Below are positions 175-45,755 of a stretch of DNA of 64,000 bases, piece by piece; within the stretch, counting starts at the first letter, position 1; each line of letters opens with the position of its first letter. The translations under genes were made by a program, and so were the position numbers. The DNA is from Sulfolobales archaeon HS-7 (lineage in GTDB: Archaea > Thermoproteota > Thermoprotei_A > Sulfolobales > Sulfolobaceae), in assembly GCA_019704295.1 (NCBI GenBank), contig AP024596.1:288001-352000 (forward strand). Direction: 5' to 3'. Below the pieces are notes generated by a model. The model did no database searches. It was given only the letters and a program-made list of their open reading frames with translations, and was not told the DNA's origin.

Positions 175-205
175 TACTCAAAAAAGAGTAGATACTCTTT
201 TAAAT
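175..205 (+). promoter_or_regulatory. Palindromic operator overlapping the TATA region of the rib operon
   Basis: TACTC-N6-GAGTA at 175-190 and the perfect inverted repeat AAAAGAGTA-GA-TACTCTTTT at 182-201 abut TTTTAAAT (198-205), about 25-30 bp upstream of the ribB ATG at 228. Confidence 0.55.
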
Positions 206-227
206 TATTACAAAATACTCTATCAAG

Positions 228-2479: not shown

Positions 2480-2482
2480 CGT

Positions 2483-4808: not shown

Positions 4809-4984
4809 CTGGAGATGTTTACTTTTATCGAAATTAAGGATAACCTTATACTATTCATTGCAAGGACTCCATACTAGGAATTTAACGGCACTTCCTACGT
4901 GTTAACTACCCCTTATTGACTTAGTACCCTTACTTAACGATTCCCTGCTTCCTTATGAACCCCAAAAAAGTTAAATCTAGTCCT

Positions 4985-5080
4985 TGTATAGGGAATTACG
5001 TAAGATCTCACGGACGCAATTCCCCAGACCCTTGGGTACGACGTGCCCAAGGTCTAAGACGCGTTGCTTTTTTTCCCTAA
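4985..5080. ncRNA. Candidate structured RNA (two adjacent GC-rich hairpins plus a T7 tract)
   Basis: GGGAATTACGT/ACGCAATTCCC (4991-5024) and AGACCCTTGGGTAC/GTGCCCAAGGTCT (5026-5055), followed by TTTTTTT at 5068-5074. Confidence 0.3.
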
Positions 5081-5152
5081 AAACTACAAAGGGAACTCCG
5101 AACGTTCTTTTACTCCTTACCCAGTAGAATTGGACATTAGCACCCCCTAAGA

Positions 5153-5998: not shown

Positions 5999-7219
5999 AC
6001 TAACGTTATCGATTTTCGCGAAGGGATATCTCCCGGGAAGTGGTGCGTCCCACCACGATACTACGTAACTCTCTCTAGAGAGTTCGATCACGTTTTTGAC
6101 GATGTTTCCTAGTTTATCCGCTATTCTCACTCTTCCAACAAAACCCTCCGGTTTCCCATTCCTGAAGAGTATCGTAGCGTCTCTAGTAACCGTTGAGAAT
6201 TGCCCCTCCGCCATGTTCTGAAATCTCGTGTACCAATTGTTATTAACATAAATGAAATTCCCGTCCATCATATCGTGAAACTTACTGGTCCCAGTGTCAA
6301 TTTCCAAGGCTAGACTCCTCGGGTAAATCCATCCCGCGTTACCTGTGCTTTTGGCGTTGAATACCTTCGCCGTTTCGTTATTTAGGAGGTGGGTGTTGAA
6401 CTTTCCTTGGTAAATTATCTCCTTTCTGAAAGTCCTTTCTCCCTCATCGTCGAATTCCCAGTTCCCGATCTGTTCATCGTCAGGAATATCTCTAAGAGTG
6501 AACACATCAGACGCTACCTCATCCCCTTTCTTTGAATCAGAAAAGATCGAGTTTCCTGTCATTGCTGAGAAACCTGAAGCCATTCCTGACGCATACATCA
6601 TGAGGTTGGCCATAACCAGGGGGGACAGAACTACAGTGTACTTTCCGTCGTTTACATCAGCTCTCCTGTCAGAGAGCTTTAATAACTCATTCGCAGTTTC
6701 CACACAGTCCCTTAGCTTATCCTGTTCAAACCTATTCGACGTATGAGCCCATTGGGCACTGAATTCCCCTCTCTTCACCCTGAAATATGCGTTAATCCAT
6801 CCCTTCTTTTCAGCGCTTTTGAGACCCTTAGAGGTGTTTAAATTTCTGTTAACGATCGTGACGGTAATCGTCCCGTAAATGGGGTTCTTGCCCTCCAGAA
6901 GGGGAGGTATCGCTGATACGTCCTGATAAAGTTCCTCTAGGGTTGGATGAACTTTGTTCTGAGAGTACTCCCCCGAGGTATCCGAGATAATTGGGGAGAT
7001 CTGGGACTCAGGCAAGATATTAACGATTTCCGCAAGCTTCCTCTGATCTAGAGTTTTCTCCCTACCTACGTAGTACTTGTTCCCTTTTTTAAGCATGACT
7101 TCGTAGCCTTTGTCACTAAACCTCTGGACGTTCTCGATTTTGCTTTCAACTACCTTTATGACAAGGGTTTTAGTTTGGTACTCTATAGTTGCGTATTCGT
7201 CAAAACCCGTAAACTCCAT
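5984..7219 (-). CDS. pmbA: TldE/PmbA family protein
   Basis: FDDEG and STGNAG motifs, no HExxxH; directly downstream of tldD. Confidence 0.85.
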   Translation of the reverse strand: MEFTGFDEYATIEYQTKTLVIKVVESKIENVQRFSDKGYEVMLKKGNKYYVGREKTLDQRKLAEIVNILPESQISPIISDTSGEYSQNKVHPTLEELYQDVSAIPPLLEGKNPIYGTITVTIVNRNLNTSKGLKSAEKKGWINAYFRVKRGEFSAQWAHTSNRFEQDKLRDCVETANELLKLSDRRADVNDGKYTVVLSPLVMANLMMYASGMASGFSAMTGNSIFSDSKKGDEVASDVFTLRDIPDDEQIGNWEFDDEGERTFRKEIIYQGKFNTHLLNNETAKVFNAKSTGNAGWIYPRSLALEIDTGTSKFHDMMDGNFIYVNNNWYTRFQNMAEGQFSTVTRDATILFRNGKPEGFVGRVRIADKLGNIVKNVIELSRESYVVSWWDAPLPGRYPFAKIDNVSLTRA

Positions 7220-7220
7220 T

Positions 7221-8600
7221 TCACATCACCTTGACGTTAACGTTCCTCAACCTCATGTTTGGTCCACCCAACCAAACCGGAACGCCCTGTTCTGGATCTC
7301 CTTTTCCACACATCCCCGGTTTAAAGTCCAGATTTCTATCTACCCCGTCTACAGACTTCAGAAAGTAAGTAGTTGTTCCCTCTAGGACGGGGAAAAGAAG
7401 TGGTTCCCCTATTTCCCCGTTGTTGATCGCGTAAGCTTCCAATGCGATGTACCTTTGACCTAACCTCATATCGTCAATATTCCACTCCATGTAGTTCTTG
7501 AAGTATATTCCCTCGCGGACGTCTTCAACGAGCTCCTCAAAGGACATTTCCCCTGGAACAAAGTATGTGTTCGACATCCTGATCAATGGCTCCCTATCGA
7601 ATCTGGACGATCTTGCAGATCCGTTACTTCCCCTACCCGTCCTAAATCCGGTAAACCTGTCTTGAAGCATCTCGTTGACTTTCCCAGAGACAATAAGCTT
7701 CTTTTCACGAGCAGAGACTCCCTGGTCGTCAATGAGGTAGAACCCGGAGCTTGTTGGGATCGTAGGGTTGTCGGAGAGGTTTACCACGTTACTTCCTACC
7801 TGGTCTTCCTTAAACTCGGTGAGGTAACTGGAACCCGCCTGAGCGAACTCTCTTCCAAGGATCCTATCCATCTCAAACGGGTGGCCCACTGACTCGTGTG
7901 CCATAATCCCGCTCAGGATCGGACTGAGAATTACGTCTTTCTTACCTGGGGTTACCCCCTTTCCTGAGTGCATCACCCTATCGATTGACCTCAAGTTCTC
8001 CTCAATCTTCTCCTGGAGATTTCTCTGGATTAACCACTCTAGTCCTCCACTCCCTCCCTCTTCAAACCATGCGGTAACTGTCCTTCCGTTACCCTCCAAA
8101 ACTATATTGTAAGTTATCAGAACGCGGGGAACTCTTCCCATTATAACGTCAGAATCGCTAATCATGATCTCCTTTGTTTCTACGCTTTCAACGTAAGAGA
8201 AAACGAGACTCTTTACTTTTCCTTTTATTTCAGTCTTCATTACGTTGGATAAAACGTCATTCAGGTAGGATATCTTTGAATCAATAGACATAGAGGAAAG
8301 TTTCACCTTTTCCTCCGATTCGTATTTCGCTGACTTTACGGGTTCCTCTGATACACCGGCCTCCCAGCCTGTTAAGGACTCCCCCACGGGTTTTATTTCC
8401 GTTGAATTCGGGGAGGCGTAAAATTGAAGGACTCCATTATTGAATGTCCTGACTGAAAACCCTTCCTCTTCCGAATTGTAAATTCCGGCGAACTTTCCGT
8501 TAAGGTATCTCATACCCTTGGTAATTACGCTGTGATATCTCACTTCCTTATATCTTGAAGGAAACAATTCAGATATTTTTCTTAACTCATCTTCATACAT
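7221..8600 (-). CDS. tldD: TldD family metalloprotease
   Basis: HESVGHPFE zinc motif, RMSNTY, C-terminal GMCGK. Confidence 0.92.
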   Translation of the reverse strand: MYEDELRKISELFPSRYKEVRYHSVITKGMRYLNGKFAGIYNSEEEGFSVRTFNNGVLQFYASPNSTEIKPVGESLTGWEAGVSEEPVKSAKYESEEKVKLSSMSIDSKISYLNDVLSNVMKTEIKGKVKSLVFSYVESVETKEIMISDSDVIMGRVPRVLITYNIVLEGNGRTVTAWFEEGGSGGLEWLIQRNLQEKIEENLRSIDRVMHSGKGVTPGKKDVILSPILSGIMAHESVGHPFEMDRILGREFAQAGSSYLTEFKEDQVGSNVVNLSDNPTIPTSSGFYLIDDQGVSAREKKLIVSGKVNEMLQDRFTGFRTGRGSNGSARSSRFDREPLIRMSNTYFVPGEMSFEELVEDVREGIYFKNYMEWNIDDMRLGQRYIALEAYAINNGEIGEPLLFPVLEGTTTYFLKSVDGVDRNLDFKPGMCGKGDPEQGVPVWLGGPNMRLRNVNVKVM

Positions 8601-21131: not shown

Positions 21132-21559
21132 GACTTAAACTTCATAATTTATGATTAGAGAATGTACTTTTAGGCGTACTTAGCAGGCATGTAACAAGTC
21201 ATTAAGTTTTCATTGAATCTAAGGCATATTAGTATATTCTAAATGGTCAATTATTTACCTGTACGTTAACAAAACTCAGTACGTATTAATATTGAATGAA
21301 CAATAAATGTAATTCACCTTATAAACTAAATTTTTATTGAATAGAGTATCGCAGAACATAATTGGAGGGGTAATACTTAAGCGGGATTACGCGTAGGTTA
21401 TATTTTGGTCATGATTTAATATCACGTAATACTCCAGCAGGACTTAGGTCGGAAGAGTAAATATCTTTTGTAAGGAATTTCTAAGTGAGTTAAAGGATGT
21501 ATTTAGCAGGGATTTCAAGAGCCTCAAGTTTTCCAAGTACAAACCTTTGACTTTCTCCC

Positions 21560-21715
21560 ACGGGGAAAACGCGTACCACTAATGATGAATACAGCAAGTC
21601 CCTACAATGGTTAAGTCTAAAGAGATCCAAGTTGGTCAAGGCTAAGAACGTCAAGGATTACGAGGTGGACGTAAGTAGCATTTTGAATTCGCTGTTCCCA
21701 TAACTGTGTTAGAGG
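21560..21715 (+). mobile_element. Unclassified IS-like 3' remnant
   Basis: Encodes TGKTRTT..YSKSLQ..KNVKDYEVDVSSILNSLFP* then CTGTGTTAGAGG; homologous to 40230-40384. Confidence 0.6.
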
Positions 21716-21730
21716 CAAAGCATATAATGC

Positions 21731-21849
21731 ATCGAAAATTTCGAAATTATCCTCAGATATATTCAATAAATTAATTGAATAAATTTAATTCTAGATAAAC
21801 GTGTTTTATAACTTTTAGTTTATTTAGTTATTCACATTAATTACACATT
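21731..21849 (+). repeat. Degenerate direct repeat, right copy (partner 9065-9202)
   Basis: Exact 16-mer TTTAATTCTAGATAAA plus collinear flanking blocks. Confidence 0.55.
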
Positions 21850-33464: not shown

Positions 33465-34277
33465 ATGGAGTATAGGCCCCTCTGTAAGAAATGTGATAAA
33501 GTATCTGTGGTAGGTATGGGAACCTATTACGATCCCTTATGGATCGTTTTATCTAGATTTAACGTATTCAGAGGCGCGGAGGAGAAGGTAAAGGCAATTA
33601 AAGCGGGTATAGAACACGGGATAAACTTCATAGATACCGCAGAGTTATACGGTTCAGAGCACCTGGTTAGAGAGGCAATAAAGGAGTATAAAAGGGATCA
33701 ACTCTTCATAGCTACAAAGGTTTGGAGAAGTCATCTCAAAAGGGAACAGGTGTTAAAGGCGATTGATGGCAGTCTAAGGAGGTTGGGCCTAACTTACGTT
33801 GACCTATACCAGATTCACTTCCCTAGCTATACAGTCCCGATAGAGGAGACAATACATGCGATGGAGGACCTTGTCGATAAGGGTAAGGTACGTTACATCG
33901 GTATAAGCAACTTCTCTCTTGAAAAAATGAAAAAGGCCGTCGAATCATTTAGGAAGTACGAATTGGCATCGACCCAAATGAATTACAGTCTAGCTAACAG
34001 GGAGATCGAGAGGGATATAATCCCCTTTTGTAGAGAGAACGGAATAGGTGTAATAGCCTACTACCCACTAGGTCACGGGAAGTTAATACGGAACAGGGAG
34101 GTCAATGACGTTGCAAAGAGATTAGGGAAGACGCCAGCTCAGGTCGTCCTTAACTGGGTGATAAACAAAGGGGCTTTTCCCATACCCAGAGCGTCTAGGG
34201 AAAGTCACGTAATAGACAACGTGTTAAGCGCTGGTTGGGAACTTTCACCCGAGGATATAAGGCAGCTGGAGTCGTGA
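33465..34277 (+). CDS. Aldo/keto reductase
   Basis: IDTAELYG, IATK, DLYQIHFP, IGISNF, YYPLGHG and PIPRAS motifs. Confidence 0.94.
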   Translation: MEYRPLCKKCDKVSVVGMGTYYDPLWIVLSRFNVFRGAEEKVKAIKAGIEHGINFIDTAELYGSEHLVREAIKEYKRDQLFIATKVWRSHLKREQVLKAIDGSLRRLGLTYVDLYQIHFPSYTVPIEETIHAMEDLVDKGKVRYIGISNFSLEKMKKAVESFRKYELASTQMNYSLANREIERDIIPFCRENGIGVIAYYPLGHGKLIRNREVNDVAKRLGKTPAQVVLNWVINKGAFPIPRASRESHVIDNVLSAGWELSPEDIRQLES

Positions 34278-34420: not shown

Positions 34421-37012
34421 CTATTTGAAGAAGCTATCCAGTGTTACTTGATTATCATCTATCCTCTTATTGCATATTTGAAGTAGATATTCTTTACTTG
34501 CTTTCTTCTCCTCATCGTCTGGACCGTGCACGGAGAGTATTTCGGCTATATTACATAATTCCTGTGGTGAAAATGTGAAAATTGTTGAGGTAATCTCTTT
34601 CTCGACTCCCTTCTTTCCCTCTTCTTCGAAACGTCTGAGTAAGTAATGATAAGCGTCTATAATTATCCTTTCTTTGTTTCCAAACCTGACCCTGTTCTTA
34701 AAGTTCAGTAACTCAATATCCGATTTCTCTTTACCAGAGGATCTCTTTATAATTCCTTCTTTCTCTAAGTACTCAACACTCAAATCTGGGAAACCCCTTG
34801 TAAGGTTAATTAGCTCGTCACTTGAAATAACTACTTTTATACCTTTACTATCCTTTCTAATATATATGTCAGATACCCTGGTGAAAAGGTAAAGTTTAGT
34901 CACCGAATCCATGGCAGAAATGTTTTTATTTGTCATAAAGTTGACAATTTTAACTGGAGCAACCTCATAGACCATCTCTATGACGCTATCAAATGGTTTC
35001 ACATCCTTTCTCTTCGCCAAAAGATTAGAGTACTGAGTCGCAACGCTAAGTGATGCCCCTATACCTGCTAGCATGATATCAGCCCCTTTATACCCCTTTT
35101 CAATAGCTCTCTTTATAGAGGTAGTAATCGCTCTCTCAATATCGCTTTTAAGGTCTTCGACGAAAGCTTGTCTGTCCTCCTTCCGCTTCCTCAATACCAT
35201 TACAACTGATGTCTGCATAGCTACCTTTCCACGACTTACGGAGGAGCTCTCTTGCTCTGTATGAACAGGTATCGTATTGGAAATCGTGAAACCGGATTCC
35301 ACTATAGCTTGAAGCACTGAGATCCAGAACTCTGGCCTTTTATGAGCATAGAACATTGCAATAATCCCATCGTCTTTAAGCACTCTTTTCATGAAGTTTA
35401 GAACGGTTTTAAATTTCATTTCAAAAAAATTCCTATTTCTCCCTGGTCCTACGCTCATCTCCTCCATTGATCTTTCTCTCCATAATGACGAAAAATGGAA
35501 ATTTTCCGGATACACGTCTTCAAGGACAGGTTTCATTAGTGCGTAGAAGAAATCCGAGATCTCGGCGTATTGCACGTCGTCATAGTAGGGGGGATCTGTC
35601 ACGATAAGGTCAATTGAACCATCTGAGATTGGTAGATCTTCTGCACTTTTCATCAAAAGAGTGTAATTTGGGTTATCTTTGACTCTCTCTTGTATGAATG
35701 CACATGCCTCAACAATATCACAAAACATAGACCAAAGCGAACCTGAGAAAAGGGAGAAAGGGTTGACTTCAACGACATTCCACGTCATTGCGGGTCTTCT
35801 GAATGCCATAGTGTCCCCTACAACGACGTAGGATGAATGCCAGTGGGTTAAGAACGAATTATGATCTCCATGTTTGCTCACTAAAAATGAGAGATATAGT
35901 CTAAGCATCGCTTCTTCTTTAGGTACTTGTTTTCTAATTTCCTCTATAAGCTCGGAAAGAACCTTTAGCTGACGTTTATTAAACATTTCTGCATAGTTAC
36001 GAAAACCATATCTTGATGCACTTACCACTTTATCCTGTATTACCTCTACGTTTATAGGAGATTCAGAAACTTGAGGGAGATTGGAATCTTCTGGTCTAGC
36101 TAAATGAAATTCCTTGTCCTCGGTCATTATGATCAAGAGTCTTGCCCTGTTAGGTTCTTTACTGATTTTACTTACTAATTCTTTCTCTGGAATTGAATAG
36201 TTGCACCTAGGGCACATTACTTCCTTGTTAGATGCTTTCGTAGGAGAAGCTTTAGTCTCACCTTCTTCAATTTCTACGATGTAATCGTCTCCTTTATATT
36301 CTATTGAGAGGTAAAGCTTCTCTTTCGACTTTACCTTCTTCAAATACCAACTAGATGTAATGGGAATTTTAGCTCCACAATTAGGACAGTCCGTCTCTCT
36401 AAACCATAAATACGCAGCCACTCTTTTACCATTAAAATCTGGGAACAGCTTTTCGTTCTTTTGTTTAACGCCTAAAATGATCTTGCATCCTAAGTCGACA
36501 AGCTTTCCTAACTTCGATTTATCCTCCTTTGTACAGACATCTTCCATGTCAACGGTAAATCCTCTTTTATACTTCTTAGAGATTCTTTCCCATTCCTTAA
36601 CATTTACTAGCTCCTCTCTTATATCAAGAGCCTTTAACAAGGCCCACGCCACAGGGTTATAGTCGTTTGCGATGACTTTTAGACCAAGTCTTAAGCCTTC
36701 AAATGGTATTGACCCTCCACCAGCGAATGGATCCAAGAGAGTAAGATTTTCAAATCTTTTTATAACATCCTTAGGAATAGGATTTTCTACTGTAGCTTCG
36801 TTTCCTTTTATCATTAGTCTGATAAACTCCTCATCATTGTCCAGAATCGAGCCTAAGATCATAGCCCTGGAAACTACTAAAGGTTTCCTCGCCCACCAAA
36901 AATTTAGTTCACTAATAGGATATCTCCCCCCTGTCTTTTCCCTTCTTGCTTCTTCATTTATCTTCTCTAGCTCAGGTAATCCCCTTTCTATTAGCTTTCC
37001 TCCTTCGGGCAC
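34421..37012 (-). CDS. DUF1156 adenine-specific DNA methyltransferase with Zn ribbons
   Basis: WWARKPL, DPFAGGGSIP (motif I), CPNCG and CPRC, TDPPYYD (motif IV), YAEISDFFY. Confidence 0.92.
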   Translation of the reverse strand: MPEGGKLIERGLPELEKINEEARREKTGGRYPISELNFWWARKPLVVSRAMILGSILDNDEEFIRLMIKGNEATVENPIPKDVIKRFENLTLLDPFAGGGSIPFEGLRLGLKVIANDYNPVAWALLKALDIREELVNVKEWERISKKYKRGFTVDMEDVCTKEDKSKLGKLVDLGCKIILGVKQKNEKLFPDFNGKRVAAYLWFRETDCPNCGAKIPITSSWYLKKVKSKEKLYLSIEYKGDDYIVEIEEGETKASPTKASNKEVMCPRCNYSIPEKELVSKISKEPNRARLLIIMTEDKEFHLARPEDSNLPQVSESPINVEVIQDKVVSASRYGFRNYAEMFNKRQLKVLSELIEEIRKQVPKEEAMLRLYLSFLVSKHGDHNSFLTHWHSSYVVVGDTMAFRRPAMTWNVVEVNPFSLFSGSLWSMFCDIVEACAFIQERVKDNPNYTLLMKSAEDLPISDGSIDLIVTDPPYYDDVQYAEISDFFYALMKPVLEDVYPENFHFSSLWRERSMEEMSVGPGRNRNFFEMKFKTVLNFMKRVLKDDGIIAMFYAHKRPEFWISVLQAIVESGFTISNTIPVHTEQESSSVSRGKVAMQTSVVMVLRKRKEDRQAFVEDLKSDIERAITTSIKRAIEKGYKGADIMLAGIGASLSVATQYSNLLAKRKDVKPFDSVIEMVYEVAPVKIVNFMTNKNISAMDSVTKLYLFTRVSDIYIRKDSKGIKVVISSDELINLTRGFPDLSVEYLEKEGIIKRSSGKEKSDIELLNFKNRVRFGNKERIIIDAYHYLLRRFEEEGKKGVEKEITSTIFTFSPQELCNIAEILSVHGPDDEEKKASKEYLLQICNKRIDDNQVTLDSFFK

Positions 37013-37047
37013 AGTTAAAGATAAATCAAGAGAGATTATTATTATTT
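37013..37047. promoter_or_regulatory. Compact bidirectional promoter region
   Basis: Only 35 AT-rich bp between the divergent GTG (37012) and ATG (37048). Confidence 0.45.
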
Positions 37048-40000
37048 ATGGAAATGAAGGCAGTATGGGAAGCCAATAAACCCTCTCAGGACATACTCTC
37101 AAGCTCTCTTTCCGAAGATCAATTTGGAATAGAAATAAGTAATGTCGTACGTGGAAAAGCTCCAAAAGTCTACCTAGATCCCTTCGAGTTCTTTAGGAGG
37201 ACGTACTTTACCAAATCACTATCAAGGATACTTAAGGACGCGATACTCACAGTGACTAATGGCACCGGTACTCCTATTTACGCTGTTTTGACAAGTTTCG
37301 GGGGAGGGAAGACTCACATACTTATAGCTCTTTACCACTTCTTTAAGGCTAATAAAAAGCAGGAGCTATTGTCTATCTCCTCAATTTCGTCTTTACTTGA
37401 TGATATCAAAACAGGTAACGTGACAATGAATATCCCTGAGGTTAACGTGGTTGTCATTGACGGATTGAATTTAGAAAAAGATGATAACCTCTTTCAATAC
37501 CTATCCAGATCACTCAAATCGGACGTTGATCTTAGCGATCCTACTGAACAGAAAATGTCCTTTATGCTGGAAAAAGCTGCTCCCACAGTAATTTTGATAG
37601 ATGAGATCGGGGAATATATTAGGAAGCTCGACACCTATCAGAGAACGAACAAAATCCAGGAGGTTTTGCTCTTTTTCAGATTACTGACTTCGGCTATCAC
37701 AAGTAGAACAAGAACGTTTCTCCTAGTCACGTTGACCGATGAGACTTTACCTCCAGAGCTCAGGAGTTACATCAGTGATATCGCTAAAATCCTCTCGCGT
37801 TACGTTAACCCACTAGAACCTACAACCCGAGAGGAGGTAGTAGAGATCATCAAAGCAAGGCTTTTCGAGTACATCGATAAAAACAACGGTGATAAAGTTT
37901 CCTCGTTTTTCTCATCTTATTATACTAAGTTCAAAGACTACTATCCTGCAGAGGCGTCAGAATATTACTATAAAATGATAAAATACTATCCGTTTCATCC
38001 TACTTTAATAGATACATTGTATGGAAGGATATCAACAATTCCCGGCTTCCAAAAGACCCGACATACACTTAGGTTTCTAGCTTACGTTGTAAGGGAAGTG
38101 TGGAAAAAGAAGGAAAAAGATGCGTATTTAATAGGATTAGATTCGGTTGACCTGAGCAATTCGGATATTCTGAATAGTCTTTTAAACAACATAGGAAGAG
38201 ATGCGCTTTCAACTGTTGCAAAGTTCGACATCGAGTCTGACAAAGGGGGGAAAGCCAAAGGAATGGGCTTAGATCACTTGCTTACAGCTAGGGTGATCTT
38301 CATGGGATCTATCATAGGTACAGACCAACCCCTAGATAGGAACGCATTTAGAAAAAGCGACATCCTTTTAGGTCTGACTAACGTAATTCAAAAGGTTAAC
38401 CCAGGGTGGATTGACACAGTTCTAAAAGACCTTACAGACAAGCTCTGGTATATCTATACGGACAATGTAGATAGATATTGGTTTGCTACAACGCCCAACA
38501 TAAACAAGGCTATAGAGGATACGAAAGCTAATGTTAAGTCTGAACGGGTGGACAAAATAAGGGAATATCTGGAGGAGTTTCAGAGAGATTTCAAGAGAGA
38601 ATTTGAGGGATTCGAAGTCAGAGTAGACACTGATTTAGAGGACCTAGATGATCCGAAATTACGTTTAATCATTATAGACCCCTCCGTAGAGGGCTCCAGC
38701 CTAACGATAAGTTACGAGGGAGGTGACATAGAACCCCCTCAGAAATTGCTAAGTTATTTTAACGTGAGGTCTTATAAGAACACTGTAATATTTATTGTTC
38801 CTAGTAGAGTCTATTTCGAGAAAGCTCTAGATGAAGCGGCTACAATAGTTGCGTTAGAGAGATTAGAAAGTCTGGAGTCAATGAATCAGTACAGTAAGGA
38901 GTTGAAACAGAAGAAAGCGGATTACGACGCGAGATTAAGGTTCTCCCTAGTTAATGCCTTCAGTTTTATTTTTTACCCAGTTTCAAAGGAGGGCTGTAGA
39001 TTAGAAGGTGAAAAAATACAGCCCGACGTTTATACCAAGGACGTTTCCTTAACTTCAGAGAAATTAGCTAAAAAGGCGATGGAAACTTTAGAGAGCAAAA
39101 CTAAGGTCATAAGGAAGTCAGACGATGTAACTGATGAATATCTCAAATACATATTTAGTTTAAAATCTGAACGTATAGCTGTAAAGGAATTTCTGGATAA
39201 TCTGAAGAGAAGGTGCGACGCACCAATAATTCCCGATGGAACGACCCAAATTGACTTAATTAAGAGAGCGGTATCTAAAGGATACGTAAGTTATAAGTCT
39301 GCTGATGGGCTCCTTACTAACTTAAAGGAAATATCTAAGGAGATAGGGAAGAGAGACGGTATTAACGTAGATGTAATACAGCTCATTGCGGAAGGCTCCA
39401 AACTTGGATTGGAAATAGCTAAAAAAATGAAACAAAAATTCGATAACGAAGCTATTGAGGTTAAAGATGACGGGTTCCTAATAAACAATGAAGAAGTGAT
39501 CAATGAGGTTAAGACGTATTTGCCGCCTTTAATTGAAGAGATCGAGAAGAAAAAAATTCACCAAACTCCCGACGTTAACAAAATCGAAAGCCAATCCGTT
39601 TCCCCACAAGATATTTTCAAGCAGGAGAGAAGGGAGGAGATATCATTAGACGACTTAGACAATATAATAAGTGAAGGTTTCAAAGTCGAAATAAGAAACG
39701 TCGTAGTTACCATTAACAATTATCAAGATTTCTCTGGTTCAGTATCCAGTCTTGGTCTTATAATATCTGGTATTAAAGTACATGACCCTAAAATTAGCAT
39801 AAGTGTTACACAGACTTCCAGGGATTCGCAGCGTAAACTCTCCCTAGAGTTAAACACTGATTTAGAAAATTTTCAAAGAATAATTCAATTTTCAAGAGAT
39901 ATTGTAAATAACTCATTTAGAAACGGATTAGTTAACCTAAATTTTAGGCTTGGTATAGAATTGACAGAATATAAGATAAAACAAAATGATGATTTCATAA

Positions 40001-40074
40001 AAAATCTGAAAGGGCTGAAGCCGAAAGAACAGGAAGGAATTCACGTGAAACTAAATGTGATCGTAACGAAATGA
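37048..40074 (+). CDS. DUF499 AAA+-type ATPase
   Basis: YLDPFEFFRRTY, Walker A TSFGGGKTH, Walker B ILIDE, YPFHP, FQKTRHTLR; start moved from 36946 to ATG 37048 (or 37054). Confidence 0.9.
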   Translation: MEMKAVWEANKPSQDILSSSLSEDQFGIEISNVVRGKAPKVYLDPFEFFRRTYFTKSLSRILKDAILTVTNGTGTPIYAVLTSFGGGKTHILIALYHFFKANKKQELLSISSISSLLDDIKTGNVTMNIPEVNVVVIDGLNLEKDDNLFQYLSRSLKSDVDLSDPTEQKMSFMLEKAAPTVILIDEIGEYIRKLDTYQRTNKIQEVLLFFRLLTSAITSRTRTFLLVTLTDETLPPELRSYISDIAKILSRYVNPLEPTTREEVVEIIKARLFEYIDKNNGDKVSSFFSSYYTKFKDYYPAEASEYYYKMIKYYPFHPTLIDTLYGRISTIPGFQKTRHTLRFLAYVVREVWKKKEKDAYLIGLDSVDLSNSDILNSLLNNIGRDALSTVAKFDIESDKGGKAKGMGLDHLLTARVIFMGSIIGTDQPLDRNAFRKSDILLGLTNVIQKVNPGWIDTVLKDLTDKLWYIYTDNVDRYWFATTPNINKAIEDTKANVKSERVDKIREYLEEFQRDFKREFEGFEVRVDTDLEDLDDPKLRLIIIDPSVEGSSLTISYEGGDIEPPQKLLSYFNVRSYKNTVIFIVPSRVYFEKALDEAATIVALERLESLESMNQYSKELKQKKADYDARLRFSLVNAFSFIFYPVSKEGCRLEGEKIQPDVYTKDVSLTSEKLAKKAMETLESKTKVIRKSDDVTDEYLKYIFSLKSERIAVKEFLDNLKRRCDAPIIPDGTTQIDLIKRAVSKGYVSYKSADGLLTNLKEISKEIGKRDGINVDVIQLIAEGSKLGLEIAKKMKQKFDNEAIEVKDDGFLINNEEVINEVKTYLPPLIEEIEKKKIHQTPDVNKIESQSVSPQDIFKQERREEISLDDLDNIISEGFKVEIRNVVVTINNYQDFSGSVSSLGLIISGIKVHDPKISISVTQTSRDSQRKLSLELNTDLENFQRIIQFSRDIVNNSFRNGLVNLNFRLGIELTEYKIKQNDDFIKNLKGLKPKEQEGIHVKLNVIVTK

Positions 40075-40229
40075 ACTCCTACTTTTTAAGGAAAATTACT
40101 AATTTATATATAACGTTAATAAAACTAAAATTCTCTCGGTCATAAGAGAAGGACCGTGAGCTAAAACGTTCTCTTATTACAGATCATTTCCTAACTACTA
40201 TAATCTATGAAAATGGTAAGGAGCCTTCC

Positions 40230-40384
40230 GCGGGGAAGACGCGCGCCACCAGCGCAAGGATTAGTAAGTCCATACAAAGGCTTAATCCTAAGAGGTTCAA
40301 GTTACTCAAGATAGGAACGTCAAGGACTATAACGTTGACGCAAGTGACGTTCTGGACTTGCCATTCTCATAGCTGTGTTAGAGG
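40230..40384 (+). mobile_element. Unclassified IS-like 3' remnant inside the defence locus
   Basis: AGKTRAT..SKSIQRLNPKRFKLLK, frameshift, NVKDYNVDASDVLDLPFS* then CTGTGTTAGAGG; homologous to 21560-21715. Confidence 0.6.
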
Positions 40385-40542
40385 CCAAGTAGGTAAAGCC
40401 TCTATGAAGAATGCTCAGGATTACCTAGGGTGAGTCTCTCTTGATTATACATCCAGAGCGGAAGTTCAGCTCTTTAACCCTTGTGATGATAATATTTTCA
40501 TGCCCACTCTCTTATATATGCTGATCTCAACTAGGTGAGAAG

Positions 40543-40887
40543 ATGGCTCTTAAAGAGGTATATGACGTATTTGAAATCAGTGTAAACAAAAAGAATGTGT
40601 GTCTCTATTTCAAGGGGGAAAATGTTAAAGTAAAGTACTCGTGTTGTTCTAGGGATTACATGAAGTACATAAATATCCTAGAAGAGAGGAAAGTAATCCC
40701 TGAAGCAGAGTTTAGAAAAGTTGCTAGACTTTTCATCTTGATGAAAGTATTGCCTTACACCAAATCCAAATACAAAGCGGTCGACATAGTTAGATCATTA
40801 CCCGATATGGAGGTATCCTTCTGGTTTTCCAAGTTCTCAGCATTAGGAAATAGGGCAGTGTCTTCCTTCATGAAACTCTACCTCTGA
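40543..40887 (+). CDS. Small defence-associated protein (DUF3780/DUF7680-like)
   Basis: C-terminal VRSLPDMEVSFWFSKF....RAVSSFMKLY resembles the E-x-x-(Y/F)-W-(Y/F)-x-K...A-x-x-x-L pattern of small proteins in DUF499 loci; gene context. Confidence 0.6.
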   Translation: MALKEVYDVFEISVNKKNVCLYFKGENVKVKYSCCSRDYMKYINILEERKVIPEAEFRKVARLFILMKVLPYTKSKYKAVDIVRSLPDMEVSFWFSKFSALGNRAVSSFMKLYL

Positions 40888-40888
40888 T

Positions 40889-43800
40889 TTAAAAACTCTC
40901 ACTGGTAACGTGATTTGACTGTAGGTATTTCAGGAGATCCGTGTAGGGAATTTCCACCTTCCTCTGAGTTTTCATGTATTTTTGCTGATATAGGAACTCC
41001 CTGAGGGATGCAGCCGGGTTCTTGACCTCCCAGACTTTCTTGCTCGCCAGATCTGCTATGTATAAATAAAAGTGCTCCCTCATATCCCCCCCATAGCCGT
41101 GGAGTTTTGCCTTAGTAAACCTACCCCTATAAGTCCTATTATTGGGGTCCATCGCCATTAACTCAACGGGGGTTATATTGATCTTGCTCCAATTTCCTTG
41201 GACAGTCTTGACCTCAATGTATTTGACCTCGTCATTACATATACTTAAAAAGTCAAACCCTGCAGTGAAAACATCCCTCATGTCAATTACGTCACATCCC
41301 TTATTTTGCTCTAACCTATTCACGATCTCCTCTCCCTCTGAACCCTGATTTAAGAACTCCTTCATGGAGTTCACGTCCGCGTTTCCAGTTATGTCTGAGA
41401 ACCCTTCGGGTAACAGTCTAATCCCTGCTATGAGTTTTGAATCTGTATATATTTGGGCATAGTTGAAGAGGTCTGCTACGGTGCTTTTTCTACTAAATAG
41501 TTCATCTAAATTATCTGTCATTGAAGATCGTCTCTTTTCAATGTTAGCGATTTCCTGATCAATCACGTCAGTTACTTCCTGAAATATCTGATTCTTTCTA
41601 TATTCAATTTCTGTCTTAATCTGTTCCTCAACTTCCCTTATCTTTTTCTTAACTTCAGGTTCATCAGCTATAACTAGAAATTCCGATCCACACTCATCTA
41701 TGACAGCAGTAAGGGAATTGATGAATGAAGTCTCTACTCTCTTCACCTTTTTATTGACCTCATCGTATAATATTGCTATAAGCTTCTCCTTCTCAAGCTT
41801 CTTCTTGTAGAACATCCCTTCCGTGACTCTTCCGTTTACGGGAACCTCATCAGATTCACCCTTTACTTCAAAAAGTAGAAGCCAACCCATGAAACGCTTA
41901 TTTTCGGCAGTAAATGAAATAGGGTATGAAGATGGCTTCAAAAGGTCTATAAGAGCTCTAACCAGAGGATGAGTCGGGTATATATAGTTGCACTCCTTTA
42001 CCCTTTTACATTCATCAAAGCGAAAAGAAGCATTACTTACAATTAGATTTTCAGCATCTTTCACGCCTTTAGGAGGCCTTATGTCGTAAAGGAGTGGGTT
42101 TATCCTACTCCGAATTGGGGGGACTCCATAAGCTTTCAAGGTTTCTGTTACAAACATTTCCACTTCCTCCTCCGTCACTTCTTCCTTTTCATCGCATGAA
42201 GGGTCCAAATTACTAAAACTGTAAGACAAGTTATATTCGTTCCATTCCTTAGCTGTTCTTTCGGCTTTTCTTAACAGCGAGTCGATCTTTTTCTCTATCT
42301 CTTGATTCCTAAAGGTTTCGTCTGGGTTTTTTACAGTTGTTTCCCTTATAACCTTCTCTATGTCTTTGTCCGAAACTGCCACTCCAAGGTAATCGTAGAC
42401 TTTTCCTAATGTGTCCTTAATGATATCCAATTTGTTCATGAGTATTTCGAGAACATGAGAGTCTATGGTCTCCTCTGTGTAAACGTTATACGTCAACACC
42501 TTTTTCTTCTGTCCGTATCTGTGAACCCTTCCTATCCTCTGGTCAAGTCTGGTCGGATTCCAGGGAAGATCATAGTTTATTACTACGTTGGCCACTTGCA
42601 AATTCAGCCCTTCGGAGGCGACGTTAGTCGCAATTAAGACGTCCTTTCCCTCAATGAAATCTGTTTCAGCTCTCTTTCTCTCCTCAACTCCCATCTTTCC
42701 GTGTACGATGGACACTCTAAACTTGTCTTTCCATCTCTCATTCAGGTAAAATAGTGTGTCTCTAAACTCCGTAAAAACTATGACCTTATCTCCACGACTT
42801 ACGTGTTCCTCTATTACCTTTTCAACCTTTTCAAGCTTGGAGTCCTTGGCAATTCTACCTCCTTCGTCGATCAAGTCATCTAACCTGGATATCTCACGTG
42901 ACAGTTCTTCCTTGTTTCTACTCAAAGTGACTTCCTGGACTATACGTCTTTCGTCTATCCCTTTTTGGTGTTGATCGGAAGGATTTTGACCTTTATTAAC
43001 TATTTCTCCTAGCTTATTCCTTCTCTTCTTCAGGGTCTGCAAAAGGGAATTGAGGGAGGAGGAGGCCCTTTTTTGAATTACCATTGCTACTAAAGCATAA
43101 GCCTTAGACTTTCGTCTGTCGCTCTCTCTCATCGAGGCCATGTAGTAATCTCTTATATATTCATTAACTTTATCGAAGAAGTTCCTCTCTTGATCACTTA
43201 GAGTAACCTTTATGATCTTAGATTCTCTATCCGGTATAAGCCTATTATCATTGAAGTCTCTTACCTCTTCCCTCAACCTCCTGATCATAATTTCGTTTAA
43301 CACCACGTTTACGTTTGACTCAGTAACAAATGGATCGATCAATCGCAACCTATGAATGAAATCCTTGGTCTTTCCATGATGAGGGGTGGCGGTAAGTAGT
43401 ACTATGTTAAGAAATGGATCGCTAAGCAAAAGTCTTTCCGCCCCAGCGTACCTCTTTGTTCTACTGATTTTTTCCCTCTCTTCCCGTACTGTGAGATTAT
43501 GCGCCTCGTCTATTATTATCAGATCCCATTTCCCTTTCAACAAGGACTCTACTGCTTTTTTCTTGCCCAAGAGCCCCATGGAAAGGATAAAGTTTCCTGG
43601 ATGTTGATTAGGCGATAAGTCAGATGCCTCTTTAGTGCTTGATATTATTTTAAAGTCCAGATTAAACTTCTCCTTCATCTCTCTTTGCCACTGGAATAGA
43701 AGGGATTTTGGACAGATTACAAGGACGTTATTGGCTCTCTCCCTACTCTTTAGTTCTTTTATTAACATACCCATCATGATAGTCTTTCCAAGTCCGACAT

Positions 43801-43984
43801 CATCGGCAACTAGAAATCTTATAGGGTCGTGTCTGAGCATGTTTTGAACGGCGATCAACTGATGCGGAAGAGGATCGACCTTAGAAGGAACTGAAGTAGT
43901 GCAAGCCTCTTCGAAGGCAAAATGATGCAATCTTATTGCCTCAACTCTAAGGTAATTCAGAAGGGCCTCGCTTTCCCTATTCAT
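40889..43984 (-). CDS. SNF2-family helicase fused to a C-terminal PD-(D/E)XK (DUF3883-like) nuclease
   Basis: ADDVGLGKT, DEAH, TATPH, SEGLNLQ and QRIGRVHR motifs; C-terminal GFDFLS...YIEVKT. Confidence 0.92.
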   Translation of the reverse strand: MNRESEALLNYLRVEAIRLHHFAFEEACTTSVPSKVDPLPHQLIAVQNMLRHDPIRFLVADDVGLGKTIMMGMLIKELKSRERANNVLVICPKSLLFQWQREMKEKFNLDFKIISSTKEASDLSPNQHPGNFILSMGLLGKKKAVESLLKGKWDLIIIDEAHNLTVREEREKISRTKRYAGAERLLLSDPFLNIVLLTATPHHGKTKDFIHRLRLIDPFVTESNVNVVLNEIMIRRLREEVRDFNDNRLIPDRESKIIKVTLSDQERNFFDKVNEYIRDYYMASMRESDRRKSKAYALVAMVIQKRASSSLNSLLQTLKKRRNKLGEIVNKGQNPSDQHQKGIDERRIVQEVTLSRNKEELSREISRLDDLIDEGGRIAKDSKLEKVEKVIEEHVSRGDKVIVFTEFRDTLFYLNERWKDKFRVSIVHGKMGVEERKRAETDFIEGKDVLIATNVASEGLNLQVANVVINYDLPWNPTRLDQRIGRVHRYGQKKKVLTYNVYTEETIDSHVLEILMNKLDIIKDTLGKVYDYLGVAVSDKDIEKVIRETTVKNPDETFRNQEIEKKIDSLLRKAERTAKEWNEYNLSYSFSNLDPSCDEKEEVTEEEVEMFVTETLKAYGVPPIRSRINPLLYDIRPPKGVKDAENLIVSNASFRFDECKRVKECNYIYPTHPLVRALIDLLKPSSYPISFTAENKRFMGWLLLFEVKGESDEVPVNGRVTEGMFYKKKLEKEKLIAILYDEVNKKVKRVETSFINSLTAVIDECGSEFLVIADEPEVKKKIREVEEQIKTEIEYRKNQIFQEVTDVIDQEIANIEKRRSSMTDNLDELFSRKSTVADLFNYAQIYTDSKLIAGIRLLPEGFSDITGNADVNSMKEFLNQGSEGEEIVNRLEQNKGCDVIDMRDVFTAGFDFLSICNDEVKYIEVKTVQGNWSKINITPVELMAMDPNNRTYRGRFTKAKLHGYGGDMREHFYLYIADLASKKVWEVKNPAASLREFLYQQKYMKTQRKVEIPYTDLLKYLQSNHVTSESF

Positions 43985-44289
43985 AACAAGAGATTCATTT
44001 GAGGATTTTTATGGTTTTCTTACAGTTTTATTTCAGCTTTAAATACGAACAAAAGATCACAGATATCTGAAAAAGCTTTCCCTATTGTTAGGGAAAAATG
44101 GGAAGATTTACGTTAGTGACGAAGCGGAATCCGTGTAATTCTGCTAACAGGGGAATTGGAATAACGTAATTCGGATTTTTTGTATATTCATGAACATATT
44201 TCACGTAAACCTTACAATAGTAAATAAAATACGAAGCTTTCAGAATTAAAAAAGACAAGGTTATATTAATGAAAGTAAAAAGTTGATCG

Positions 44290-44896
44290 TGCAGACCACC
44301 AATTTCTCTACTTGTAAGTCTCTTTTTTTACGCCTCTTACAGACGTAGCACACAAGGTAAAGCGGTTTTGAAAGTGATGAAAGGTGACAAGTTAGGAGAT
44401 ATGAGCAGGCAAATGAGGGTCGAGTCATTATCTAGAATAAGGTATCCTTATCGATGAGGAGTCCTATCTCAGGGGAGCTGATGCGCTTTCTCTATGACAT
44501 TATGAGAGCTGGAAAAGTCCTCCCACAGAAACGAAGGTTGTGTCTGACAAGGTAATTATACTAGATAGTGAAAGGGTAATCGCAGGGACTTTTATCGAGA
44601 TTTTCCTTTCCTCGGACTTAAGGACGGCAAACTCCGCTTACTTTATCGCCAACTCCTGAGGATAGGTCCTGACATTAGGGGTCGCTCTTTCCTTGTCATG
44701 ATATACCTATACGGAGTAAGGTAATCAACGACCCTGCAAGGAGATTAGGGGAGCCGCCTGCTCAGGTTGCCATTAACTGTGCATTCAGTGAGAGTTCCCC
44801 CATACCTAAGGCGTCTAAGGAAGTCACTTCATAGATAACGCGTTAAGCGTGGATCGTGAACTTTCGCGTCACGACGTAAGGTTACCGAATCATTAT
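44290..44896 (+). pseudogene. Decayed copy of the aldo/keto reductase gene (33465-34277)
   Basis: 44709-44896 aligns with 34086-34278, e.g. GCAAGGAGATTAGGGGAGCCGCCTGCTCAGGT vs GCAAAGAGATTAGGGAAGACGCCAGCTCAGGT and CCCATACCTAAGGCGTCTAAGG vs CCCATACCCAGAGCGTCTAGGG; similarity upstream of 44709 is weak, so the left boundary is uncertain. Confidence 0.75.
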
Positions 44897-44960: not shown

Positions 44961-45755
44961 ATGGAAACTGAGAACGTAATAAGAGATCTTGCACAAAGGT
45001 TCGTGAAGGAGGATCCGGCGAGGGCTATTGCAGAGGCAACGAGGACGAGGTATCTCTTTCTCGATTTTTTGGACTCGCTCAGAGGGAGGATCAAAGAACT
45101 TGATAAGTTAAGGTTTGAGATTCTCCTGGACGCTATAAAAGACGACGTAGAGTATCAGGACGTACTTGCTGAGGCGATCTCGTGGGAAATTAACCGAGTT
45201 GACGACAAAGACGCGTTAAATATTATAAACATAATTTCGCCTCTTCCATATCTTTTTCGAAGAGTTTGGTGTAATCTGGGAGAAAACTACTTTTCTAGAA
45301 GGGTCTACCTCATGGCACTAAAAATGAGTGCTTCACGATATCTGGGCTGGGGAGCAGGTAAGGGGTTCGTGAATTACGACAACGACGGTCTCCTGAAAAC
45401 TGTAGAAGTGGATAACGAATTTGCTGTAGGATTTGGGATTGGGACGGGTTTAAGTGTAGAGCTCCTGACCGATGAGAAATTAAGGAAAATACTCCAAATA
45501 AGAAATGAGACTTTGCATGTGACCTTCGCCTCGACTATAGTGTTGAGGGCTAACCACATCCCCTTTTCAACACTTATGAGTCTCATCTCACTTTCCAATT
45601 CGTACGAGAACTTCGGCAGAAGCTTTGGACTCCTCCTTTCTTTATACTACCCTCATCTTAAAAAGGACATAAAGGAAAAACTAGACATGTACTGCAGATT
45701 CAATAGTGGAAATCCCTTTTTGGAGGGATTTACTGACGTCCTGTTGAAGGATTAG
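44961..45755 (+). CDS. Hypothetical protein, probably helical repeat
   Basis: 264 aa with recurring F/L-x-x-G-F-G-like segments (LGWGAG, FAVGFG, FGRSFG, FLEGF). Confidence 0.7.
   Translation: METENVIRDLAQRFVKEDPARAIAEATRTRYLFLDFLDSLRGRIKELDKLRFEILLDAIKDDVEYQDVLAEAISWEINRVDDKDALNIINIISPLPYLFRRVWCNLGENYFSRRVYLMALKMSASRYLGWGAGKGFVNYDNDGLLKTVEVDNEFAVGFGIGTGLSVELLTDEKLRKILQIRNETLHVTFASTIVLRANHIPFSTLMSLISLSNSYENFGRSFGLLLSLYYPHLKKDIKEKLDMYCRFNSGNPFLEGFTDVLLKD

What the first reader, a model, noticed from the sequence alone, without database searches (positions are those of the whole stretch)
34421..43984. Archaeal four-gene restriction-like defence system (DUF1156 methylase, DUF499 ATPase, small protein, SNF2-nuclease) in a rearranged layout
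Seen: an N6-adenine methylase (FAGGG, DPPY, Zn ribbons), a large ATPase (GGGKT, ILIDE, YPFHP), a 114-aa protein and a SNF2 helicase carrying a C-terminal PD-(D/E)XK nuclease. Known: this gene set matches the DUF499-DUF3780-DUF1156-helicase/nuclease 'restriction-like' anti-phage system described in bacteria, which is typically co-oriented and mechanistically poorly understood. Inference: all four frames are intact here but arranged minus, plus, plus, minus, i.e. at least three transcription units. This points to a thermoacidophile variant in which the methylase/ATPase and the helicase-nuclease effector are regulated separately.
Basis: partly seen in the sequence, partly recalled or inferred. 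Interest (0 to 1): 0.8.

Follow-up and report, generated by a model that had tools for sequence, protein, structure and literature searches.

The report
Rearranged four-gene Hma/BREX-related defence island
This is an intact copy of an already named methylation-based anti-virus system (Hma / BREX-related, a relative of MANTIS) in a Sulfolobales-type archaeon. Its new points are a small fourth gene from the little-known DUF7680 group and a gene layout scrambled in this genome only.

Summary
All four ORFs, their strands (-,+,+,-) and the cited motifs are present as described. PADLOC names them HmaB (DUF1156 N6-adenine methylase), HmaC (DUF499 AAA+ ATPase) and HmaA (SNF2 helicase with a C-terminal PD-(D/E)xK/NOV_C nuclease). 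[quoted passage not shown]

The 114-aa ORF is a real gene. It folds confidently (pLDDT 92.5). A profile comparison links it to Pfam DUF7680 (95%, E 2e-8), not to Pfam DUF3780. Relatives sit directly after hmaC on the same strand in 48 of 48 loci, with a median 4-nt overlap.

The locus mixes published subtypes. It has a type-1 nuclease position, but no TUDOR domain and an MtsB-position small protein, as in type 2.

The layout is not a conserved "thermoacidophile variant". The closest full-locus relatives are co-oriented operons, 8 of 57 sampled loci have other mixed orientations, and none has this one. A ~180-bp dispersed repeat separates hmaC from the small gene here. The ~10.6-kb island is bracketed by a duplicated aldo-keto-reductase 3' end.

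Earlier scan notes on other genomes already reported the extra small gene and DUF7680 cofactors. Interest is modest.

The parts
34086..34277 (+). 3' end of the intact aldo-keto reductase gene (33465-34277). It forms the left copy of the direct repeat that brackets the island.
   Evidence: Pfam Aldo_ket_red 2e-67. The 71-nt direct repeat 34086-34156 / 44709-44779 is 77% identical.
34421..37012 (-). hmaB: DUF1156-type N6-adenine DNA methyltransferase. It has a target-recognition insert with a four-Cys zinc ribbon between motif I (FAGGG) and motif IV (DPPY).
   Evidence: Family matches are PADLOC HmaB 7e-69, Pfam DUF1156 1e-13 and N6_N4_Mtase 4e-8, and NCBIfam DUF1156_antiphage 6e-61, which is below the equivalog cut-off. 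It is 35% identical end to end to the L072 HmaB.
37013..37047 (.). 35-bp A/T-rich divergent intergenic region between hmaB (GTG 37012) and hmaC (ATG 37048). A TATA-like A/T box lies about 28 nt upstream of each start.
   Evidence: Sequence read. There is no alternative start codon in the first 30 hmaB codons. The promoter reading is inference only.
37048..40074 (+). hmaC: DUF499 ORC/Cdc6-clade AAA+ ATPase (Walker A GGGKT, Walker B ILIDE), the counterpart of MtsA/BrxC.
   Evidence: Family matches are PADLOC HmaC 3e-81 and NCBIfam DUF499_antiphage 6e-45, below cut-off. The closest database relative is P0004 at 54% identity, and other homologues carry PF04465. Pfam DUF499 itself does not hit this copy.
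40224..40404 (.). Dispersed repeat of about 180 bp (MITE-like). It lies inside the 468-bp gap that separates hmaC from the small gene.
   Evidence: There are 24 copies in the 2.15-Mb genome at 69-80% identity. Boundaries come from a multiple alignment. There is no tRNA or Rfam hit.
40543..40887 (+). Small basic protein (114 aa, net charge +9). It is a remote member of the DUF7680 superfamily and occupies the MtsB/DUF3780 position after the ATPase. A GGTGA Shine-Dalgarno motif lies 4 nt before the ATG.
   Evidence: - The AlphaFold2 model has pLDDT 92.5 with four strands and five helices.
- The profile search found 18 family clusters.
- hhalign against DUF7680 gives 95.3%, E 2.3e-8.
- The bridging member L153 passes the Pfam DUF7680 cut-off and hits the family HMM at 4.5e-13.
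- The gene is syntenic in 48 of 48 loci.
40889..43984 (-). hmaA: Swi2/Snf2 helicase with a C-terminal PD-(D/E)xK (NOV_C) nuclease (D911, E924, K926, E941). It has no N-terminal TUDOR and no PLD domain.
   Evidence: Family matches are PADLOC HmaA 7e-109 and Pfam SNF2-rel, Helicase_C and NOV_C. It is 36% identical and colinear end to end with the L072 HmaA. The open frame extends only 8 codons upstream. No TUDOR remnant is found upstream.
43985..44696 (.). Unique non-coding stretch upstream of hmaA, with no ORF longer than 57 aa.
   Evidence: The stretch is single-copy in the genome. tblastx finds nothing in any related locus.
44697..44881 (+). Decayed, frameshifted copy of the aldo-keto reductase 3' end (residues 204-266). 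It forms the right copy of the bracketing direct repeat.
   Evidence: tblastn gives E 5e-11 in two frames at 47-60% amino-acid identity. The 71-nt repeat is 77% identical.

Best explanation
The locus is an intact, horizontally acquired Hma / DUF499-centred BREX-related defence system with four components.

**Proposed mechanism.** This is inferred by homology to MANTIS and to Halomonas HmaA; nothing was tested in this organism.
1. The AAA+ ATPase HmaC, helped by the small basic DUF7680-like protein, loads and activates the DUF1156 methylase HmaB on short specific sites.
2. HmaB marks host DNA by N6-adenine methylation.
3. The same recognition complex on unmodified invader DNA engages HmaA.
4. 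HmaA's SNF2 motor and PD-(D/E)xK nuclease nick or cut that DNA.

**History of this copy.**
- The system sits in a ~10.6-kb island inserted at the 3' end of an aldo-keto reductase gene.
- Relative to its closest sampled relatives, hmaB and hmaA have changed orientation or position.
- A dispersed ~180-bp repeat lies in the 468-bp gap that has replaced the usual overlap between hmaC and the small gene.
- The system must therefore be expressed from at least three transcription units. This state is private to this genome as far as sampled, not a lineage-wide design.
For: **Identity.** PADLOC HmaA, HmaB and HmaC match at 7e-109, 7e-69 and 3e-81. Catalytic motifs are intact. The proteins are colinear end to end with the L072 proteins.

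**Small protein.**
- The model is confident and has the same strand/helix order as a DUF7680 model.
- hhalign gives 95.3%, E 2.3e-8.
- A bridging member exists.
- The gene is always directly after hmaC, with a median gap of -4 nt.
- It is basic, like MtsB.

**Mechanism from the literature.**
- MANTIS needs MtsA, MtsB and MtsC for methylation and all four proteins for restriction.
- The HmaA nuclease residues D, ExK and E are required against phage T4, and their equivalents are conserved here.

**Island.** The bracketing direct repeat is shown.

**Spread.** The family is found in 59 of 401 genomes of the phylum. No close copy was found in 40 same-family genomes, which is consistent with transfer.
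Against: - No experiment exists for any type-1-like or archaeal member beyond HmaA alone.
- In Halomonas, HmaA alone protected against T4, and over-expressing HmaB did not change T4 sensitivity. Dependence on the methylase/ATPase module is therefore unproven for REase-type systems.
- The proteins are only 25-36% identical to any full locus that could be examined.
- The NCBIfam equivalog cut-offs for the MANTIS-type proteins are not reached.
- The link to DUF7680 rests on about 60 C-terminal columns plus topology and synteny. The link to MtsB/DUF3780 itself could not be tested.
- The repeat-containing gap may have reduced expression of the small gene.
Confidence: 0.7

Rival explanations
1. The locus contains two functionally independent modules. 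HmaA works alone as a helicase-nickase, abortive-infection-like defence, as reported for Halomonas. HmaB, HmaC and the small protein form a separate modification or regulatory module. The opposite orientations reflect that independence.
For: - HmaA alone defended against T4, and HmaB did not behave as a classic protective methylase in that assay.
- About 15-20% of hmaA genes lack hmaB or hmaC nearby.
- hmaA here has its own upstream region and the opposite strand.
Against: - The three or four genes co-occur in most sampled loci.
- In the homologous MANTIS system, restriction needs all four proteins and the methylase directs targeting.
- The closest relatives keep hmaA in the same operon.
Confidence: 0.17
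2. The -,+,+,- layout is a selected thermoacidophile variant, in which the methylase/ATPase and the helicase-nuclease effector are deliberately regulated apart.
For: - The observed layout needs at least three transcription units.
- Each gene has an A/T-rich TATA-like box about 25-29 nt upstream (weak evidence in a 60% A+T region).
- A head-to-head hmaB/hmaC arrangement is stably kept in one other clade (L054, L055, L057, L080, L083, L085, L088). Divergent expression is therefore workable.
Against: - No sampled locus has this pattern.
- The nearest relatives L072 and L074 and ten Thermoproteota genome loci are co-oriented.
- Same-family genomes carry only distant systems.
- A mobile repeat sits in the one junction that is overlapping or tight in 44 of 48 other loci. 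That looks like accident, not design.
Confidence: 0.08
3. The locus is a decaying, no longer functional island that has been rearranged, invaded by a repeat, and has lost its operon structure.
For: - The repeat lies between hmaC and the small gene.
- About 700 bp of unique non-coding DNA and a decayed gene fragment lie at the right edge.
- No integrase is present.
- Earlier scan notes describe decayed Hma operons elsewhere.
Against: - All four ORFs are full length and colinear with relatives.
- All catalytic motifs are intact.
- The small protein keeps the family's invariant Trp and folds confidently.
Confidence: 0.05

Closest known systems
Hma system (HmaA/HmaB/HmaC; Payne et al. 2021, PMC8565338; Liu et al. 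2024, PMC11232893), also called Type-1 DUF499-centred BREX-related system (PMC12839542)
   Same: - All three core proteins give their best PADLOC hits to the Hma models.
- The helicase carries the C-terminal NOV_C PD-(D/E)xK nuclease, with the D/ExK/E residues shown to be needed in Halomonas HmaA.
- The family has been reported in about 200 archaeal taxa.
   Different: - The helicase lacks the N-terminal TUDOR domain.
- A conserved small fourth protein follows hmaC, whereas published Hma/type-1 descriptions list three genes.
- The genes are not co-oriented.
- In my HmaC tree the window falls outside the well-supported TUDOR-type clade.
MANTIS (formerly Gao_RL / Gao_29; Type-2 BR system; Shaw et al. 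2026, bioRxiv 10.64898/2026.09.23.753747)
   Same: - It has the same four-part logic: DUF499 ATPase, small basic protein directly after it, DUF1156 methylase, and SNF2 helicase-nuclease.
- The helicase has lost TUDOR.
- It is the only relative with a reconstituted mechanism, so it is the best model for how this locus works.
   Different: - The nuclease here is a C-terminal PD-(D/E)xK, not an N-terminal HKD/PLD.
- The small protein is 114 aa and does not match Pfam DUF3780.
- The NCBIfam equivalog cut-offs are missed by a wide margin.
- Gene order and orientation differ.
- No MtsR repressor is present.
Pfam DUF7680 (PF24728) small proteins
   Same: - They occupy the same position directly after the DUF499 ATPase gene.
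- The predicted strand/helix order is the same (b-b-b-a-b-a-a-a-a).
- The C-terminal ...E..FW...RA..A.R.L motif is shared.
- hhalign gives 95% probability.
- L153 is a member of both profiles.
   Different: - The Pfam model does not detect the window protein.
- The window protein is about 30 residues shorter.
- In my sample, most bona fide DUF7680 genes accompany PLD-type helicases.
- No paper in the held library mentions DUF7680.
Type-3 BREX (BrxC, PglXI, BrxHII)
   Same: The ATPase, the methylase with its nested recognition domain, and the RapA-like SNF2 helicase are homologous. BrxHI/BrxHII is the second-best PADLOC hit for HmaA.
   Different: The island has no PglZ, BrxA, BrxB/F or BrxL.

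Membership tests
Hma / Type-1 BR system | DUF499 ORC/Cdc6-type AAA+ ATPase (HmaC) | tested here: met
   PADLOC HmaC matches at 3e-81 over model positions 171-747. Walker A and Walker B are intact.
Hma / Type-1 BR system | DUF1156 N6-adenine methyltransferase with nested recognition domain (HmaB) | tested here: met
   Pfam DUF1156 matches at 1e-13 and PADLOC HmaB at 7e-69. FAGGG and DPPY are separated by an insert of about 370 residues that carries a Cys4 zinc ribbon.
Hma / Type-1 BR system | Swi2/Snf2 helicase with a C-terminal active PD-(D/E)xK (NOV_C) nuclease (HmaA) | tested here: met
   PADLOC HmaA matches at 7e-109 and Pfam NOV_C at 3e-6 over residues 886-952. D911, E924, K926 and E941 are present.
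Hma / Type-1 BR system | N-terminal TUDOR domain on the helicase | tested here: not met
   - The helicase Q-motif begins at about residue 37.
- Residue 12 aligns to PADLOC model position 79.
- Only 8 codons are open upstream.
- No remnant is found upstream.
- TUDOR-bearing relatives have about 130-140 residues before GxGKT.
Hma / Type-1 BR system | Three-gene core with no dedicated small subunit | tested here: not met
   A conserved small gene follows hmaC here and in the window's whole tree neighbourhood.
MANTIS / Gao_RL / Type-2 BR system | HKD/PLD nuclease fused N-terminally to the SNF2 helicase (MtsD) | tested here: not met
   There is no PLDc hit. The NCBIfam phospholipD_antiphage model aligns only over its helicase part, positions 525-877 of 895. 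Only about 36 residues precede the helicase.
MANTIS / Gao_RL / Type-2 BR system | Standalone small DUF3780 protein (MtsB) encoded after the ATPase | tested here: inconclusive
   - The position, small size, basic charge and the published fold description (four strands plus five helices) all fit.
- Pfam DUF3780 does not match the window ORF.
- No DUF3780 sequence or MtsB structure was available for a direct comparison.
MANTIS / Gao_RL / Type-2 BR system | Loss of the helicase TUDOR domain | tested here: met
   See the TUDOR row above.
Type-3 BR system | Standalone PglZ and inactive-STAND genes in the locus, and a helicase without nuclease | tested here: not met
   The island holds only the four genes described, and the helicase carries a nuclease.
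DUF7680 (PF24728) | Match to the Pfam model at or above 24 bits | tested here: not met
   There is no hit for the window ORF, even at E <= 10. The relationship is visible only by profile-profile comparison (95.3%, E 2.3e-8) and through the bridging member L153.

The most novel reading that the evidence does not exclude
TUDOR-less helicases with a C-terminal PD-(D/E)xK nuclease, paired with a DUF7680-like small protein that is translationally coupled to the DUF499 ATPase, may form a distinct fourth kind of BREX-related system. This kind would be prominent in Thermoproteota and would bridge Hma (type 1) and MANTIS (type 2). It would mean that an MtsB-like co-activator of ATPase-loaded methylation is not type-2-specific, and instead replaces the TUDOR domain wherever that domain is missing. 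This genome's copy has every junction broken by inversion or by the repeat-containing gap. It would then be a natural test of whether coupling and co-transcription are needed.
Probability: 0.35. Interest if true: 0.5.

Novelty: new variant of a known kind. Interest (0 to 1): 0.33.

Why it matters
The system family is known and is now mechanistically understood in one bacterial branch, so the locus itself is not a surprise. Three things are useful.

1. The small ORF that the word-based homologue search returned only as itself is shown to be a genuine, conserved fourth subunit related to DUF7680. This widens the MtsB-type co-factor idea beyond MANTIS, to nuclease-at-the-C-terminus systems and to archaea.
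2. Current detection rules (three-gene Hma, same-strand curation) would mis-describe loci like this one.
3. A cultivable-type Sulfolobales genome with an intact but uncoupled copy could serve for a first archaeal test of the MANTIS model.

Tried and rejected
**Negative searches in the window**
- A tRNA or other attachment site in the window: none.
- Any Rfam family in the window or in the 40.0-40.6 kb gap: none.
- The gap RNA fold is only weakly stable, z = -2.1.
- A TUDOR remnant upstream of hmaA or in the gap: none.
- tblastx of the non-coding pieces against all fetched loci: none.
- Inverted repeats that could mark inversion break-points: only short chance-level pairs.

**Searches on the small protein**
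- The word-based homologue search returned only the protein itself. This was misleading, because tblastn and profile searches later found relatives.
- Pfam at E <= 10, PADLOC and NCBIfam: nothing.
- The ESM Atlas look-alikes were noise.
- PDB sequence profiles: nothing useful.

**Other searches**
- Pfam DUF3780 was not found in 401 genomes of the phylum, and the control rang nowhere, so this is uninformative.
- The single-protein genome scan for HmaC relatives found none.
- The alignment-based genome scan found only two distant loci.
The context of the closest HmaC relatives (P0004 at 54%, P0005, P0006) could not be seen.
- An empty-site comparison was not possible. The 264-aa right-flank gene has no match in 40 same-family genomes.
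Full report
**Observation**

The four ORFs are present as described. They lie at 34421-37012 (-), 36946-40074 (+), 40543-40887 (+) and 40889-43984 (-). The methylase has FAGGG, DPPY and two CxxC pairs. The ATPase has GGGKT, ILIDE and YPFHP. The helicase has GLGKT, DEAH and a C-terminal D...ExK...E nuclease.

Family scans agree:
- Pfam gives DUF1156, N6_N4_Mtase, SNF2-rel, Helicase_C and NOV_C.
- PADLOC names the three large proteins HmaB (7e-69), HmaC (3e-81) and HmaA (7e-109).

The hmaC start is better placed at ATG 37048, where the homologues also begin. This leaves a 35-bp A/T-rich spacer to the divergent hmaB start. The stop codons of the small gene and hmaA are 1 nt apart.

**What is already known**

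- Hma was defined in 2021 as a helicase-methylase-ATPase system found in 26 phyla (PMC8565338).
- In Halomonas meridiana, HmaA alone protected E. coli against T4. Protection needed the helicase and the PD-(D/E)xK nickase residues (PMC11232893).
[quoted passage not shown] They occur in 3592 taxa, including 408 archaeal taxa, and fall into three types (PMC12839542):
  - Type 1: TUDOR-SNF2 helicase with a C-terminal REase, three genes.
  - Type 2: an HKD/PLD-SNF2 helicase plus a standalone DUF3780 protein. This equals Gao_RL.
  - Type 3: PglZ plus an inactive STAND protein.
- A September 2026 preprint dissected type 2 as MANTIS. The ATPase MtsA loads the methylase MtsC. The small dimeric, basic MtsB is needed to trigger hemimethylation of asymmetric 6-bp sites. 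All four proteins are needed for restriction, which works best on inverted site pairs.
- I reached the MANTIS paper through earlier scan notes.

**The small ORF**

A word-based search of 5.8 billion proteins returned only the ORF itself, and no library model hit it. tblastn against related loci then found its C-terminal half in small ORFs directly after hmaC, in six loci. A profile search of 1.84 billion cluster representatives found 18 clusters of 104-137 aa (alignment A3).

With in-box HMMs I separated three groups of small genes that follow hmaC:
- the window-like group;
- a 145-162-aa group in ten Thermoproteota genome loci;
- bona fide Pfam DUF7680, in 24 of 80 metagenome loci.

Profile-profile comparison links all three groups:
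- window group vs DUF7680: 95.3-95.7%, E about 1e-8 to 2e-8;
- window group vs Thermoproteota group: 97.5%, E 8e-12.

One protein, from a Thermoproteota MAG (L153), passes the Pfam DUF7680 cut-off and also hits the window-family HMM at 4.5e-13.

The AlphaFold2 model of the window protein is confident (pLDDT 92.5, pTM 0.85). It has the same element order (three strands, helix, strand, four helices) as a DUF7680 model with pLDDT 91.2. That order also matches the published description of DUF3780, four strands and five helices. No solved structure resembles it. All three groups are strongly basic.

In 48 of 48 loci the small gene lies on the same strand directly after hmaC. The median gap is -4 nt, and 44 of 48 gaps are 60 nt or less.

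The ORF is therefore a real, conserved fourth component. It is related to DUF7680 and stands where MtsB stands. A direct test against DUF3780/MtsB was not possible.

**Which subtype**

The helicase has the type-1 nuclease. It has no TUDOR and no PLD domain: the open frame extends only 8 codons upstream and there is no remnant.

A census of 53 related helicases shows how the N-terminus relates to the small gene:

| Helicase N-terminus (residues before GxGKT) | Loci with a small gene |
|---|---|
| Short (<95) | 14 of 18; 3 of the 4 exceptions look like start-codon or contig-edge artefacts |
| TUDOR-size (95-220) | 5 of 17 |
| Long, PLD-type (>220) | 16 of 18, all DUF7680 |

Related loci are not independent, so these counts are descriptive only.

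A FastTree phylogeny of 98 HmaC proteins gives three groupings:
- a well-supported clade with TUDOR-size helicase N-termini (where a helicase was found) and no small gene (36 rows);
- a PLD/DUF7680 clade (37 rows);
- a weakly joined third set of 25 rows, with short or intermediate helicase N-termini where a helicase was found and, in 20 rows, the other two small-protein groups. The window belongs here.

The window's nearest neighbours are L072, L073 and L074 (support 95). The L072 helicase and methylase are 36% and 35% identical to the window's, end to end. The L072 helicase has the same architecture. The locus thus combines features of published types 1 and 2.

**Layout**

Among 57 related loci in which all three large genes were found, 49 are co-oriented and 8 are mixed. 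None shows the window's pattern.

- Head-to-head hmaB/hmaC occurs in L052 and in one clade of seven PLD-type loci.
- hmaA converging on hmaC-small occurs in the near-identical pair L131 and L149.
- The nearest full-locus relatives are co-oriented A-B-C-small operons.
- The Thermoproteota genome loci are mostly co-oriented B-C-small-A.

The one junction that is tight elsewhere, hmaC to the small gene, is 468 bp here. It contains a ~180-bp repeat present in 24 copies in this 2.15-Mb genome. An earlier scan note calls that repeat an IS110 mini-element. I confirmed only that it is a dispersed repeat.

The small gene keeps a GGTGA ribosome-binding motif and has a TATA-like box about 27 nt upstream. 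It could still be expressed, but that is inference.

The layout is best read as the product of local rearrangement in this lineage, not a conserved regulatory design.

**Acquisition**

The 3' end of the flanking aldo-keto reductase gene (34086-34156) is repeated at 44709-44779, 77% identical over 71 nt. The right copy continues as a frameshifted remnant of residues 204-266 at 44697-44881. The four genes, the repeat and about 700 bp of unique non-coding DNA therefore form one ~10.6-kb insertion.

Forty same-family genomes hold only distant helicase relatives of about 33% identity. The HmaC family is found in 59 of 401 genomes of the phylum. Both fit horizontal acquisition. No integrase or tRNA is present.

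**Mechanism and confidence**

That this is an Hma/BR-family system is close to certain. The proposed mechanism is transferred from MANTIS and from Halomonas HmaA:
1. HmaC plus the small protein load the methylase.
2. The methylase marks self DNA by m6A.
3. HmaA restricts unmodified DNA.

I rate this mechanism at roughly even odds in detail. The main rival is that HmaA acts on its own.

**Verdict**

This is a known kind of system in a new variant. Its value lies in the fourth subunit and in a possible archaeal test bed, not in the gene orientation. Earlier notes of this scan on other genomes had already reported a conserved small fourth gene in an archaeal Hma cassette and DUF7680 cofactors in MANTIS-like operons.

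Noticed in passing
window 40224-40404 and 21555-21733: A dispersed repeat of about 180 bp has 24 copies in the 2.15-Mb genome at 69-80% identity. One copy lies inside the defence locus and another lies 19 kb upstream. An earlier scan note interprets it as a gene-less IS110 mini-element.
   Followed up: partly
window 34086-34277 and 44697-44881: The 3' end of the aldo-keto reductase gene is duplicated as a decayed, frameshifted direct repeat 10.6 kb away. It brackets the whole defence island, which looks like the scar of an insertion that brought its own gene end. No integrase is present.
   Followed up: partly
window 44961-45755 (+): A 264-aa ORF lies just right of the island. It has no Pfam or PADLOC hit and no match in 40 genomes of the same family.
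   Followed up: partly
window 37048-40074: Pfam's DUF499 model (PF04465) does not detect this HmaC at E <= 0.01. The PADLOC and NCBIfam DUF499 models do, and nearly all its homologues carry PF04465. Pfam-only annotation would miss this ATPase.
   Followed up: yes
L067 (G011, same family as the window) 85-8420: Three DUF1156-type methylase genes, two on one strand and one on the other, lie next to a single hmaC-small-hmaA set.
   Followed up: no
L072 11886-14195 and L081 13074-13994: The closest relatives carry further defence-type genes just after the small gene. L072 has an OLD-family AAA_21/TOPRIM protein and L081 has a HEPN protein. This fits the published embedding and hot-spot behaviour of Hma loci.
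   Followed up: no
L050, L051 (G025, G288, same order): hmaB-hmaC pairs with no helicase match within about 8 kb and no small gene. They form their own long branch in the HmaC tree.
   Followed up: no
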